Positions 31,134 through 32,928 of a stretch of DNA of 64,000 bases are shown here, piece after piece (position 1 is the first letter of the stretch; each line of letters opens with the position of its first letter). A program made the position numbers and the translations under genes. This DNA is from an uncultured Candidatus Actinomarina sp. GTDB taxonomy: Bacteria; Actinomycetota; Acidimicrobiia; Actinomarinales; Actinomarinaceae. Where the stretch lies: contig CACNFT010000003.1 in the NCBI GenBank assembly GCA_902619825.1, positions 78,461-142,460 on the forward strand, read 5' to 3'. A model generated the notes under the pieces. That model had not been told where the DNA came from and did no database searches. It saw nothing but the letters and a program-made list of their open reading frames with translations.

Positions 31134-32036
31134 TTAGTTCAGCTCAACAAATGATATATAGTTATAATTAAACATTCTATCTGGTGACTCCTTTTCAAAT
31201 TTTTCAAACTCTGTTGAGAATTTAGAATCTTTTATTTCTGCAAACAATGGTTCAAGTGCTCGATATTTGCCATCCCATCCACTTACTCCCCATTTTTGAT
31301 TTTTGTATAAATATATTGGCTGGATTTCATAATAATTTTTAACAATTTTTCTAAATAAAACTTTGTCGACTAAATTTGGTTTTCTTAATTTATTTTGCAC
31401 ATGGTGATAATGGGTTAGAAAATAAGGCCACGTTGTATTTGCTGTTGTTAACCTGTTTTGTAAGTTTTTTGGTAAGAATTTAAATTTTTCAAACTTATTT
31501 TTATATTTATAACCTGGCACCATATCGGTAATAGGTTGTCCGTAGTCTGAAAGAATTTTTCTTATCGAGTAAGAATCACCATGTCCAGGAGGGTAATTAT
31601 CTTCAAATATAGCATATCTAATACCCCAAGCATTCAAAAACTTGAGTCTATGCATAACATTTGTATGGTCATCAAAAAATACTATCGTTTTGTTGGTATC
31701 TAAATCCTCAAAAGAAATATCTTCTATATCGCCCTCTACATAGTTTGTATTTGAATTTTTGGAAATATATAATCTATTGCTTAAATCTAGATCTACAGAA
31801 ATCAAATCAATATCTGGAATCGAATTTTCAATCAACCAGGTACTGTGGCCTTGCGCTATTCCAGATTCAATAACATGCGAAATATTCAATTTCTTAAGTA
31901 AAGCATAGACTGCAAAAGAGTGATTTATACCCATACCCATTTTGTTATTTTTAATTGGCCTTAAGTTATATACCTCAATAAATTCCGGTAAATACTTTAA
32001 CAATTCTTTATTAGAAAAAAATTTATTAAGTTCCAT
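31134..32036 (-). CDS. Methyltransferase-like hypothetical protein (true start probably ATG 32036)
   Basis: VIESG...G.STW, FFDDH and FEDNY motifs; the ORF-track N-terminus (32037-32090) mostly translates the tRNA remnant. Confidence 0.6.
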   Translation of the reverse strand: MELNKFFSNKELLKYLPEFIEVYNLRPIKNNKMGMGINHSFAVYALLKKLNISHVIESGIAQGHSTWLIENSIPDIDLISVDLDLSNRLYISKNSNTNYVEGDIEDISFEDLDTNKTIVFFDDHTNVMHRLKFLNAWGIRYAIFEDNYPPGHGDSYSIRKILSDYGQPITDMVPGYKYKNKFEKFKFLPKNLQNRLTTANTTWPYFLTHYHHVQNKLRKPNLVDKVLFRKIVKNYYEIQPIYLYKNQKWGVSGWDGKYRALEPLFAEIKDSKFSTEFEKFEKESPDRMFNYNYISFVELN

Positions 32037-32083
32037 TGTGGCCAGAAGCAGAATCGAACTGCCGACCCCTTGTTTTTCAGACA
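32036..32083 (-). repeat. 48-bp duplicate of the 3' part of tRNA-Phe (att site)
   Basis: Matches 32701-32748 at 47 of 48 positions (32047 a vs 32712 g). Confidence 0.95.
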
Positions 32084-32199
32084 GAGGCAAACCATTTGTC
32101 CTTTCATCATTTTAACTTATTCGTTGTGAATTATCGCTCATTTGTGAGAGGCTCTAAAACGCAATGAGCAGTAAATAACAGAGACTTCTTTTGTGAGTA

Positions 32200-32221
32200 T
32201 GTGACAGTTTTGTGACAGTTT
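32200..32221 (+). repeat. Tandem TGTGACAGTTT x2 (putative integrase arm-type sites)
   Basis: Perfect 11-bp tandem repeat; the same motif recurs at 32657-32679. Confidence 0.7.
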
Positions 32222-32605
32222 TTATTCTTTTTCAACTAACTTGTTAACCAGAATAAACAATGATCCACCTATAAGAGTCCATAGTATATCATTCCAATCA
32301 AAAACACCTCTTCCAGGTGTGTATTTTGCAATGAATTCGTTACCTATTAGGCCAACCATAGAAATCACTACTGACCACTTCAATCTATTTTTGTAAACTG
32401 ATGAATTAGATTTAAATACCTCTGGAATGCTTACATAAAAAAAACTTGGTATGCCGATGCCTGGAAAGAAGTTAGGAGCTACTCCAAGAAAATAAATTAC
32501 AAGATCGTTTCCACCAACATAACTGGGTCTAATGTAGCTTTGAACCAAGCCAAATAAAAAAAATGAGATTCCAAATATTGTGTAGTACAGAAAGTGTTTC
32601 TTCAT
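32222..32605 (-). CDS. Small membrane protein, VanZ-like C-terminus (cassette cargo)
   Basis: Four hydrophobic segments; NE.....PGRGVFDWNDI.....G motif. Confidence 0.65.
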   Translation of the reverse strand: MKKHFLYYTIFGISFFLFGLVQSYIRPSYVGGNDLVIYFLGVAPNFFPGIGIPSFFYVSIPEVFKSNSSVYKNRLKWSVVISMVGLIGNEFIAKYTPGRGVFDWNDILWTLIGGSLFILVNKLVEKE

Positions 32606-32656
32606 ATATTGAATATATTACTTTATTGGCTATTACAAGTGTCTGTCGAGAAGTTT

Positions 32657-32679
32657 TGTGACAGTTTTTGTGACAAAAG
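32657..32679 (+). repeat. TGTGACAGTTT-T-TGTGACAAAAG (putative integrase arm-type sites)
   Basis: Second pair of the motif, ending about 21 bp from the att core at 32701. Confidence 0.7.
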
Positions 32680-32703
32680 TCTTTAATTTGTTTAAAAACC
32701 TTG

Positions 32704-32776
32704 TGGCCAGAGGCAGAATCGAACTGCCGACCCCTTGTTTTTCAGACAAGTGCTCTACCGACTGAGCTATCTGGCC
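32704..32776 (-). tRNA. tRNA-Phe (GAA)
   Basis: GGCCAGATAGCTCAGTCGGTAGAGCACTTGTCTGAAAAACAAGGGGTCGGCAGTTCGATTCTGCCTCTGGCCA folds as a cloverleaf; CCA not encoded. Confidence 0.96.
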
Positions 32777-32781
32777 TAATG

Positions 32782-32856
32782 CGGGGACGACGGGATTCGA
32801 ACCCGCGACCTCCTGCGTGACAGGCAGGCGTAAACTCCAGACTTTACCACGCCCCC
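32782..32856 (-). tRNA. tRNA-Asp (GTC)
   Basis: Acceptor stem GGGGGCG/CGTCCCC, anticodon arm CCTGC-CTGTCAC-GCAGG, T-loop TTCGAAT. Confidence 0.95.
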
Positions 32857-32928
32857 GTGATAGATAAATAAATTATAATCTAAAAAAAATTTCTTCGTAA
32901 TAGATTTTTTTTCAATACAATATAACTG

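What the first reader, a model, noticed from the sequence alone, without database searches (positions are those of the whole stretch)
32036..32748. 665-bp integrase-less single-gene cassette integrated in tRNA-Phe
Seen: 32036-32083 duplicates 32701-32748 (47/48 identical). The repeat runs from the anticodon arm to 3 nt past the discriminator of tRNA-Phe. The 665-bp unit holds only a 127-aa VanZ-like membrane gene, a candidate -10 box (TATATT, 6 nt before the ATG) and paired 11-bp repeats on each side. Known: tyrosine integrases that target tRNA anticodon loops leave exactly this 3'-half duplication. Inference: this is a minimal, non-autonomous mobile cassette (att core, arms, promoter, one cargo gene) moved in trans by an integrase encoded elsewhere or by a phage/satellite. 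That would be an integron-like way for a streamlined genome to sample single genes at the edge of its glycan island.
Basis: partly seen in the sequence, partly recalled or inferred. Interest (0 to 1): 0.85.

Follow-up and report, generated by a model that had tools for sequence, protein, structure and literature searches.

The report
Integrase-less gene cassette at tRNA-Phe
A 665-base, one-gene insert bounded by two copies of the end of the tRNA-Phe gene is a stripped-down relative of small integrase-carrying mobile elements of the marine bacterium Candidatus Actinomarina, and near-identical copies in distantly related species show it has moved recently although it has no integrase of its own.

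Summary
In detail: 32036-32083 repeats 32701-32748 (47/48), the 3' part of tRNA-Phe from the anticodon stem to 3 nt past the discriminator. Between the copies lie one 127-aa membrane-protein ORF and paired 11-mers. The genome is a Candidatus Actinomarina single-cell genome.

That small cassettes with tRNA-fragment repeats insert at tRNAs of its glycan island was published in 2020 (PMC7771536).

New here:
- Twenty of 64 same-genus genomes carry 1-3 tandem units at tRNA-Phe with varied cargo; 25 have a single core.
- Twenty-one of 29 units carry a conserved ~115-nt arm module beside the distal core. The best-kept units, this one included, have matching tandem repeats in both arms.
- This core-to-core unit is 98.6-99.7% identical in three other species, whose neighbouring genes are 66-77% identical.
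- Integrase remnants sit in related units. Full-length integrases with the same module and core occur only in metagenome contigs, two of which are circular permutations of a 6,020-bp element also encoding excisionase-like and helicase-like proteins. None is in the 65 genomes of the order.

Best reading: a non-autonomous, CIME-like mini-element mobilised by relatives' integrase. Mobilisation itself is not shown. This is a new variant of a known kind.

The parts
32036..32083 (-). tRNA-distal copy of the att core (3' part of tRNA-Phe, 47/48 identical to the proximal copy). Its first base is also the A of the ATG of the left-flank gene.
32084..32199 (-). Conserved arm module (Y arm), about 115 nt. 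It occurs once in the genome. The same module lies between the integrase stop and the core in integrase-bearing relatives.
   Evidence: nhmmer hit G000 C3:110544-110661 = window 32084-32201, E 5.9e-27; alignment A1
32200..32221 (.). Tandem pair of the 11-mer TGTGACAGTTT, a presumed arm-type integrase binding site in the distal arm. It abuts the stop codon of the cargo gene.
32222..32605 (-). Cargo gene, 127 aa, with four hydrophobic segments. It is a distant VanZ-like membrane protein, below Pfam's cut-off.
32606..32656 (-). 51-nt AT-rich stretch upstream of the cargo ATG. No Shine-Dalgarno is evident and the promoter is unverified.
32657..32679 (.). Arm repeats of the tRNA-proximal arm (X arm): TGTGACAGTTT plus the degenerate copy TGTGACAAAAG. 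The word is the same as in the distal arm.
32680..32700 (.). Short spacer of the proximal arm, between the repeats and the tRNA 3' end.
32701..32748 (-). tRNA-proximal copy of the att core, part of the functional tRNA-Phe.
32703..32776 (-). tRNA-Phe(GAA), the attachment site (attB). Published as single-copy in this order.
   Evidence: PMC7771536 passage
32781..32856 (-). tRNA-Asp(GTC), the conserved right-hand neighbour.
31134..32036 (-). Left-flank gene of the hypervariable glycan island, with no Pfam match. Its ATG abuts the distal core. No homologue was found at the locus in the 40 other loci compared.

Best explanation
The 665-bp unit is a complete but non-autonomous integrative cassette.

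Anatomy. It belongs to a family of tRNA-Phe-targeting tyrosine-integrase elements of Candidatus Actinomarina. It keeps everything that acts in cis:
- two copies of the 44-48-bp core, with crossover in or next to the anticodon loop;
- a ~115-nt conserved distal arm module;
- matching tandem 11-mers in both arms, presumed binding sites for the AP2-like N-terminal domain of the integrase.

Together these make an attP equivalent of about 235 bp wrapped round one 384-bp gene. It has lost what acts in trans: integrase, excisionase and helicase.

Origin and movement. It probably arose by deletion from a ~6-kb integrase-bearing element. It entered tRNA-Phe by site-specific recombination, which rebuilt the tRNA and pushed the old 3' half outward. 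It has passed between species recently. The integrase and excisionase would be supplied by autonomous relatives that visit as episomes or satellites. They could act in trans on the cassette's own ends. Alternatively they could act in cis: the helper integrates next to the cassette, the composite excises through the outer sites, and after transfer the helper leaves while the cassette stays.

Shown: the anatomy, its homology with integrase-bearing elements, variable occupancy and tandem arrays, near-identity across species, a circular or tandem form of the helper, and absence of such an integrase from the host genomes searched.

Inferred: arm-site function, crossover position, excision and integration of the cassette, and the route between cells.
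For: 1. Repeat and tRNA.

2. Occupancy. Of 64 same-genus genomes, 54 hold the core. Twenty have 2-4 copies on one contig, spaced 261-4077 bp. Nine have copies on separate contigs or far apart. Twenty-five have one (looser rescan).

3. Arm module. It lies beside the distal core in 21 of 29 inter-core segments in full, 2 in part and 6 not at all. It occurs once in G000.

4. Arm repeats. Of 27 cassettes of at least 400 bp, 10 have an exact tandem 7-mer in the proximal arm. In 6 of those 10 the word recurs in the cassette's own distal arm, against 19 of 252 mismatched pairings. Those 6 comprise 3 independent types: this 665-bp unit, a 992-bp GNAT unit and an 857-bp unit.

5. Recent transfer. The core-to-core unit is 99.3% (G037), 99.0% (G007) and 98.6% (G014) identical, while adjacent genes are 66-77% identical. 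The protein is 99-100% identical in 4 of 63 other same-genus genomes. The left flanks are unrelated. In G007 and G014 a different cassette lies between it and the tRNA.

6. Integrase decay series: a 145-aa C-terminal fragment next to the arm in G003 and an 85-aa remnant next to a TGTCACA-type arm in L145.

7. Full-length integrases. They are 380-405 aa and up to 97% identical to the G003 fragment. In 11 metagenome loci with a full or partial integrase gene, the core lies 165-281 nt past the integrase stop, behind the same module.

8. Helper form. L125 and L126, from two metagenomes, are permutations of one 6,020-bp unit with 98.7-99.3% identical terminal redundancy. Arm repeats match across the core, as in an attP.

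9. Helper genes: integrase with a sub-threshold AP2-like N-terminal match; a 91-aa excisionase-family HTH in the 9.2-kb L132 element (35.8 bits against a cut-off of 28.8), with a 73-aa PHROG excisionase-like ORF in the 6-kb element; AAA_25 helicase/primase-like; repressor-like.

10. No full-length integrase of this type in 65 genomes of the order. G000 has only Xer-like recombinases.

11. Independent replicate. A second mini cassette at tRNA-Val of G000 has the same layout. Its interior is 97-99% identical in 5 other species.
Against: - No circle junction, excised site or transfer event of the 665-bp unit was observed. The metagenome contigs break at both cores.
- No full-length integrase with TGTGACA-type arm repeats was found.
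- Seventeen of 27 cassettes lack an exact tandem repeat in the proximal arm. Several have the cargo ATG 3-6 nt after the core. The two-arm layout is therefore not universal, and many units may be inert.
- N-terminal domain type and arm-repeat type do not map one to one, because the elements are mosaics.
- In G014 the distal core and the first 30 nt of the module of this same cassette are deleted, so that copy is fossilised.
- A 665-bp circle has no means of replication or packaging.
- The single-cell genomes are 60-94% complete, so a missed integrase cannot be excluded for any one genome.
- A direct repeat of 48 bp would also result from RecA-dependent single crossover of a circle carrying the core.
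Confidence: 0.65

Rival explanations
1. Inert scar. The unit is only what deletion left of an integrase-bearing element. It no longer moves by site-specific recombination. Its spread reflects vertical descent plus ordinary homologous replacement of island segments.
For: Integrase fragments of 85-145 aa in related units show ongoing decay. Cargo-less 208-bp units and units with lost cores exist. No resident integrase was found. The published model for such islands includes homologous replacement (PMC7771536 passages).
Against: Identity of 98.6-99.7% stops at the cores, while neighbours are 66-77% identical. The left flanks are unrelated in all four other carriers. The same unit sits in different array positions. 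Both arms with matching repeats are intact. The ORF is intact in 5 of 5 carriers. The same pattern repeats at tRNA-Val.
Confidence: 0.2
2. Integrase-independent movement. Cassette DNA taken up from the environment or from vesicles recombines through RecA, using the 44-48-bp cores, the tRNA genes or the repeated arm words as short homologies. This could be a single crossover of a circle, or a double crossover between two cores in a recipient that already has an array.
For: The cores are identical over 44-48 bp in nearly all genomes. Elements are visibly mosaic, with breakpoints inside the integrase gene and at arm repeats. G023 carries the same cargo behind a different arm module.
Against: The identity segment ends at the anticodon loop, as for tyrosine-integrase sites. 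A conserved arm module accompanies 21 of 29 units, which homologous recombination alone would not require. Cognate integrases with the same core exist.
Confidence: 0.1
3. Host Xer recombinases move the cassette, in the manner of IMEX elements, because they are the only tyrosine recombinases in the genome.
For: G000 and nearly all relatives have just two Xer-like genes.
Against: The site is a tRNA anticodon-loop core with long arms and arm-type repeats. This is the layout of phage-type integrases, and such integrases are found next to the same core. Nothing at the site was seen to resemble a dif site. That last point is recalled knowledge and no dif search was run.
Confidence: 0.03

Closest known systems
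Small gene cassettes at the tRNAs of flexible genomic island 1 of 'Candidatus Actinomarinales' (Lopez-Perez et al. 2020, mSystems, PMC7771536; passages seen, supplementary figures not seen)
   Same: Same organism group, same glycan island, same tRNAs (Phe is named). [quoted passage not shown]
   Different: The words integrase and recombinase do not occur in the main text (counts). No arm module, arm repeats, integrase family, circular helper or near-identical cross-species copies are described in the passages I saw. Its Fig. S4 may show this very locus, but supplements were closed.
CIMEs, cis-mobilizable elements (definition in ICEberg 2.0, PMC6323972, passages seen)
   Same: [quoted passage not shown] CIMEs are mobilised after tandem accretion with an autonomous element. 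Tandem arrays are seen here.
   Different: CIMEs were defined for ICEs of Firmicutes and are mobilised by conjugation. Here the unit is a single gene of 665 bp. The helper is a ~6-kb element with no conjugation gene recognised in the ORFs scanned, and no experiment exists.
Tycheposons of Prochlorococcus (Hackl et al., bioRxiv 10.1101/2020.12.28.424599; passages seen)
   Same: Streamlined marine host without classical mobile elements. Tyrosine-recombinase elements with excisionase and primase/helicase integrate at tRNAs at island borders. Tandem elements are separated by partial tRNAs, and degenerate remnants accumulate. A PICI-like subtype exists, and the tRNA-Val relative here has a TerS-like gene.
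   Different: Different phylum. Whether the integrase belongs to the tycheposon clade was not tested. The passages describe degenerate fragments as lacking clear boundaries, whereas this unit has sharp boundaries and both arms.
Integron gene cassettes
   Same: Single, mostly promoter-poor genes, each tied to a recombination site, stacked in arrays at one chromosomal site.
   Different: No IntI. The integron-integrase models score far below their cut-offs on the Xer-like genes. No attC hairpin site and no attI with a resident integrase. The site is a tRNA core with lambda-type arms.
Lambda-type attP with arm-type sites, and actinomycete integrative elements such as pSAM2 or pSE211 (recalled, no call)
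   Same: A core in the 3' half of a tRNA starting at the anticodon loop, an attP of roughly 240 bp with repeated arm sites on both sides, an integrase gene beside attP, and Int + Xis + replication protein in a small element of an actinobacterium.
   Different: Nearest integrases in the phage and plasmid collections are at most about 30% identical. No transfer gene was recognised in the ORFs scanned. The comparison with pSAM2 and pSE211 is from memory only.

Membership tests
att-flanked insert of a tyrosine-integrase element (lambda-type site) | Direct repeat of the tRNA 3' part bounding the insert, with the functional tRNA restored | tested here: met
att-flanked insert of a tyrosine-integrase element (lambda-type site) | Identity segment begins at the anticodon loop, with imperfect inverted core sites around a 7-nt overlap | tested here: inconclusive
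   In 17 aligned units identity starts at TCTGAAAA. GCCCTTAT / CTGAAAA / ACAAGGGG can be read as an inverted pair. The crossover point was not mapped.
att-flanked insert of a tyrosine-integrase element (lambda-type site) | Repeated arm-type sites in both arms | tested here: met
   TGTGACAGTTT x2 in the distal arm, x1 plus a degenerate copy in the proximal arm. Binding was not tested.
att-flanked insert of a tyrosine-integrase element (lambda-type site) | Integrase gene inside the element | tested here: not met
   None in the unit. Present in relatives. The unit is therefore a non-autonomous derivative.
CIME (cis-mobilizable element) | Integration and transfer genes lost | tested here: met
CIME (cis-mobilizable element) | Intact attL and attR | tested here: met
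   By sequence only: both cores, the module and both repeat pairs are present.
CIME (cis-mobilizable element) | Mobilised with an autonomous element after tandem accretion | not testable with these tools
   Tandem arrays exist. No composite circle was seen.
Integron cassette | IntI integrase with attI, and attC site on the cassette | tested here: not met
   Only Xer-like recombinases. TIGR02249 scores 112 and 101 bits against a cut-off of 265. The module shows no supported hairpin.
Tycheposon | Integrase of the tycheposon tyrosine-recombinase clade | not tested
   No reference sequences were at hand.
Tycheposon | tRNA-targeting element with excisionase and replication hallmark genes | tested here: met
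   Met for the helper elements L125 and L132, not for the cassette.
VanZ family (PF04892) | Score at or above Pfam's gathering cut-off (30.1 bits) | tested here: not met
   15.1 bits for P0001. Three of the 4 Bacteroidota homologues scanned score 18.9-23.3 bits and the fourth has no match. Atlas clusters are auto-named 'putative VanZ family' at 0.96-0.97. Four hydrophobic segments. Best described as a distant relative at most.

The most novel reading that the evidence does not exclude
In Candidatus Actinomarina the tRNA-Phe and tRNA-Val sites work as an integron-like capture platform without a resident integrase. The arm module plus core is a portable recombination site attached to single genes. 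Any inter-core segment can be picked up. The cassettes are ferried between species by transient ~6-kb satellite- or plasmid-like episomes that supply integrase and excisionase, drop the cassette and leave. This would be a main route of gene flow into the glycan island of a genome that otherwise lacks mobile elements.
Probability: 0.4. Interest if true: 0.7.

Novelty: new variant of a known kind. Interest (0 to 1): 0.55.

Why it matters
Streamlined ocean bacteria have almost no classical mobile elements, yet their surface-glycan islands differ from cell to cell. How the genes get in is only partly understood.

This locus gives a small, fully specified system:
- a 44-48-bp core in tRNA-Phe;
- a ~115-nt arm module;
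- 11-nt arm repeats;
- a one-gene cassette of 665 bp;
- a candidate helper of 6 kb with integrase, excisionase-like and helicase-like genes.

All parts are short enough to synthesise and test in a plasmid assay. If the cassettes are mobilised by visiting helpers, single genes can spread across species without the recipient ever keeping an integrase. That would explain why such genomes look free of mobile elements. If they are not mobilised, the locus is still a clean record of how integrative elements decay into island content.

Tried and rejected
- Viral collection. An exact 35-nt core search found 0 stretches. The integrase P0004 found no relative there. No phage source was identified.
- RNA reading of the arm module. 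RNAalifold on 17 units gave 15 pairs, 0 with compensatory change, at -9.05 kcal/mol. Only the tRNA T-arm and a short pseudo-stem were predicted. I dropped the RNA idea.
- Pseudo-tRNA. ARAGORN calls an 80-82-nt 'tRNA-Phe' with the anticodon at position 40 at the module-core junction in 10 of 17 metagenome loci (my notebook entry says 11, which is a miscount). The acceptor and D stems are poor. I read it as a by-product of the perfect 3' half.
- Promoter. The scan gave 3 promoter-like sites against 3.4 expected.
- Reads. Only Logan contigs were available. In 4 runs of 4 studies, contigs cover the cassette interior with 0 differences (records 3, 12, 19, 28) but break at both cores. Neither a circle junction nor an empty site could be judged. 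The listed joints have sides of 23-28 letters, below the tool's own trust limit. The cassette contigs have 3.4-7.5 times the word depth of the flank contigs in all 4 runs, but the tool warns that depth must not rank genes. I count this as no more than a hint.
- One-to-one match of integrase N-terminal type with arm-repeat type: not established.
- 'Empty' sites. Of 19 single-core tRNA-Phe loci fetched (of the 25 single-hit genomes, 6 were not fetched), 4 still have a tandem 7-mer right after the tRNA, against 31 of 950 control windows. Several others share arm-like leader sequences by eye. 'Single core' therefore does not mean never occupied.
- Script error. A first regex scan reported only best matches. 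It was replaced by a Hamming scan.
- Rows dropped. Loci L146-L150 (24-32% identity to P0004) were left out of the integrase analysis. L120 was dropped from the Pfam scan because of an in-frame stop.
- Literature. Searches for prior description of the integrase or arm anatomy found none beyond PMC7771536. Supplements were not readable, so its Fig. S4 and tables may hold more.
Full report
OBSERVATION. The repeat is real. Positions 32036-32083 and 32701-32748 agree at 47 of 48 positions, 665 nt apart. tRNA-Phe(GAA) lies at 32703-32776 on the minus strand, followed by tRNA-Asp. The repeat therefore covers the tRNA from the last bases of the 5' strand of the anticodon stem to 3 nt past the discriminator. 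Between the copies there is one ORF of 127 aa (32222-32605, minus strand). The 11-mer TGTGACAGTTT stands twice in tandem at 32200-32221. It stands once at 32657-32667, followed by a degenerate copy.

ORGANISM AND WHAT IS IN PRINT. The window is G000:C3:78461-142460 of a 1.08-Mb, 13-contig genome with 24-37% G+C across the window (mostly 25-31%). Records holding the same protein are titled Candidatus Actinomarina / OCS155 single-cell genomes. Lopez-Perez et al. 2020 (PMC7771536) studied this order; I saw passages only and supplements were closed. They state that the glycotype island fGI1 uses its tRNAs as targets for small gene cassettes. [quoted passage not shown] The words integrase and recombinase do not occur in the main text. 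The phenomenon as such is therefore known. The mechanism and the anatomy are not described in what I could read.

SURVEY OF THE SITE. A 35-nt core pattern (up to 3 mismatches) was sought in 64 same-genus genomes, one per species.
- 54 hold it.
- 20 have 2-4 copies on one contig, 261-4077 bp apart.
- 9 have copies on separate contigs or far apart.
- 25 have one copy.

I fetched 40 loci and rescanned them with a 44-nt core at up to 12 mismatches. With the window added, that makes 41 loci. Twenty-one have at least two cores, giving 29 inter-core segments. Nineteen tRNA-Phe loci have a single core. One lone core in G010 lies far from the tRNA.

Cargo differs widely:
- this VanZ-like protein;
- a DUF2231 membrane protein;
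- a GNAT acetyltransferase;
- three FkbM methyltransferases;
- a DsrE + MFS pair;
- Thr-rich lipoproteins;
- large membrane proteins.

The right side (tRNA-Phe, tRNA-Asp, sugar transferase) is conserved. The left side is not: the window's left gene has no match in any of the 40 loci.

ANATOMY. Read in the sense of the tRNA, a well-kept unit has this order:
- core;
- short proximal arm with a tandem repeat pair;
- cargo;
- the same repeat pair;
- a ~115-nt conserved module;
- core.

An HMM of the module finds it once in G000, at window 32084-32201. It also finds it next to the distal core in 21 of 29 segments in full, 2 in part and 6 not at all.

The repeat words differ between units but can match within a unit. 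Of 27 units of at least 400 bp, 10 have an exact tandem 7-mer in the proximal arm. In 6 of these the word recurs in the unit's own distal arm, against 19 of 252 mismatched pairings. The 6 are three independent types (665, 992 and 857 bp). Two more (1619 and 2889 bp) match approximately by eye.

Seventeen of 27 units have no such repeat in the proximal arm. In several the cargo ATG follows the core by 3-6 nt. The window's left-flank gene does the same behind the distal core. The layout is therefore best kept in a minority, and the window's unit is one of the cleanest. In the window, the repeat pairs lie about 59-87 nt and 121-142 nt from the anticodon loop on either side. The reconstituted attP would be about 235 bp (read).

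RECENT MOVEMENT. The protein is 99-100% identical in 4 of 63 other same-genus genomes. Identity of the unit and of its neighbours:

| Genome | Unit identity | Stretch compared | Neighbouring genes |
|---|---|---|---|
| G037 | 99.3% | 32037-32857 | 76.7% |
| G007 | 99.0% | 32036-32746, exactly core to core | 65.8-74.6% |
| G014 | 98.6% | 32114-32754 | 66.8-74.6% |

G023 has the same cargo and proximal arm behind a different module (91% overall). In G007 and G014 another cassette (797 and 992 bp) lies between this unit and the tRNA. In G014 the distal core and 30 nt of the module are deleted. Four metagenomes of four studies hold the cassette interior without a difference, but their contigs break at the cores.

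THE INTEGRASE. G000 has two PF00589 loci, both Xer-like. In the genus, 61 of 64 genomes have such hits, almost all of them the same two genes. The exceptions include a 145-aa C-terminal integrase fragment (HxxR ... H ... Y present) directly beside the arm of a G003 unit.

Using that fragment, 36 longer proteins were found. The 33 closest are 372-408 aa (mostly 380-405) and 50-97% identical to it. Many carry an AP2-like N-terminal hit. With one of them (P0004), 28 metagenome loci were fetched, and I analysed 23. Fourteen contain the core. In 11 of these, which carry a full or partial integrase gene, the core lies 165-281 nt past the integrase stop, behind the same module. Most of the other 9 end before that point, and 4 of them end inside the module.

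L125 and L126, from two metagenomes, are circular permutations of one 6,020-bp unit. Each has 98.7-99.3% identical terminal redundancy. Across the core, the arm repeats match, as expected for an attP. The molecule is therefore circular or tandem. L123 and L127 are permuted likewise.

Genes of the helper:
- integrase;
- an overlapping 245-260-aa protein of no known family;
- an AAA_25 helicase/primase-like protein;
- an excisionase-like HTH: 73 aa in the 6-kb element (PHROG match), 91 aa in the 9.2-kb L132 element (TIGR01764, 35.8 bits against a cut-off of 28.8);
- a repressor-like HTH.

A relative at tRNA-Val in G054 has a TerS-like gene, a satellite trait. L145 shows an 85-aa integrase remnant next to a TGTCACA-type arm like the window's. 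No genome of the 65 held for the order has a full-length integrase of this type. The nearest integrases in the phage and plasmid collections are at most about 30% identical. Within the family, the N-terminal 70 residues diverge most: 43-88% identity between different types, against 52-100% for the catalytic part. The elements are mosaics.

MECHANISM.
- Shown: the unit has the cis parts of this element family and none of its genes. Occupancy varies. The unit has crossed species boundaries recently. The helper exists as a circle or tandem outside the sequenced genomes.
- Inferred: the integrase binds the 11-mers with its N-terminal domain and cuts around the anticodon loop. Integrase and excisionase from a visiting helper either act on the cassette's own ends or carry it along after tandem integration and composite excision. 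Afterwards the helper is lost and the cassette stays.

Deletion between the directly repeated arm sites would explain two observations: the cargo-less 208-bp unit of G039, and the arm-only remnant of G012. I put 0.65 on this reading, 0.2 on an inert scar, 0.1 on RecA-only movement and 0.03 on Xer.

CARGO. P0001 has four hydrophobic segments. It has a sub-threshold VanZ match. Three of the 4 Bacteroidota homologues scanned also match VanZ below the cut-off; five such homologues, at 41-45% identity, were found. Atlas neighbours are auto-named VanZ family. A small VanZ-like membrane protein is a fair label. Its function is not known.

SECOND CASE. G000 holds one more partial tRNA copy, at tRNA-Val(tac), C3:64551-65443. 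It has the same layout: a proximal arm with AAAAGACACC twice, a 173-aa ORF, the same pair again, a ~110-nt module of its own kind, and the core. Its interior is 97-99% identical in 5 other species and 92% in 2 more. Its module recurs in many genomes. The behaviour is therefore not peculiar to tRNA-Phe.

COMPARISON AND NOVELTY. By definition the unit fits a CIME, which has lost its integration and transfer genes and kept attL and attR (PMC6323972). It differs in being a single-gene miniature, in a streamlined actinobacterium, with a small satellite- or plasmid-like helper. The helper resembles tycheposons in lifestyle (preprint passages). Clade membership was not tested. The unit is not an integron cassette. 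The island-level phenomenon is published. I therefore rate it a new variant of a known kind, of moderate interest.

LIMITS.
- There is no direct evidence of excision.
- Genomes are incomplete.
- Metagenome contigs are of unknown host, although they carry the Actinomarina tRNA-Phe core with one difference from the tRNA sequence, at the anticodon-stem position.
- Supplements of the key paper were not seen.

Noticed in passing
G000:C3:64551-65443 (about 14 kb before the window; locus L154:1552-2444): Second integrase-less one-gene cassette, at tRNA-Val(tac). It holds a 173-aa ORF, AAAAGACACC twice in both arms, and its own ~110-nt arm module. The interior is 97-99% identical in 5 other species.
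   Followed up: partly
L050 (G039), 208-bp inter-core segment; L065 (G012), first 150 nt after tRNA-Phe: Cargo-less units consisting only of proximal arm, one repeat pair and module. In G012 the distal core is missing as well. They look like deletions between the repeated arm sites.
   Followed up: partly
L058:7677 (G010:C5, about 511.7 kb) versus L078 (G010:C5, about 882.7 kb): A lone tRNA-Phe core copy with no tRNA beside it lies 371 kb from the real tRNA-Phe, on the other strand. This may be an inversion or translocation through the cores.
   Followed up: no
L109:6000-10900 (G054:C3): Integrative element at tRNA-Val with a 366-aa integrase, an overlapping 262-aa partner, a DUF3631 protein and a TerS-like protein. 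This is a PICI-like satellite layout.
   Followed up: partly
L110:6800-11900 (G056:C1): About 5 kb between two full tRNA-Ile(GAT) genes, holding a 336-aa integrase next to tRNA-Leu, a vWA-like protein and what looks by eye like a methyltransferase/restriction pair (not scanned against any family library).
   Followed up: no
L123-L142, module-core junctions: ARAGORN calls an 80-82-nt pseudo tRNA-Phe with the anticodon at position 40 in 10 of 17 loci. The stems are poor, so it is probably not a gene.
   Followed up: yes
L123, L125, L127, L128 integrase genes: Mosaic integrases. L127 and L128 share one N-terminal domain but carry the catalytic half and distal arm of L123 and L125 respectively. 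Recombination seems to occur inside the integrase gene.
   Followed up: partly
window 32130-32158, minus strand: A -35/-10-like pair (TTTAGA, 17 nt, GATAAT) inside the conserved module points at the gene whose ATG abuts the distal core. It might restore expression of the displaced host gene. It is not above chance in this AT-rich DNA.
   Followed up: no
L007:1158-2040 (G000:C4): One of the two Xer-like genes of the genome is split into ORFs of 109 and 164 aa. This is either a frameshift or a sequencing error of the single-cell assembly.
   Followed up: no
L118-L122: The nearest relatives of the cargo protein outside Actinomarina are in Bacteroidota metagenome-assembled genomes (41-45% identity). 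This hints at a foreign origin of the cargo.
   Followed up: no
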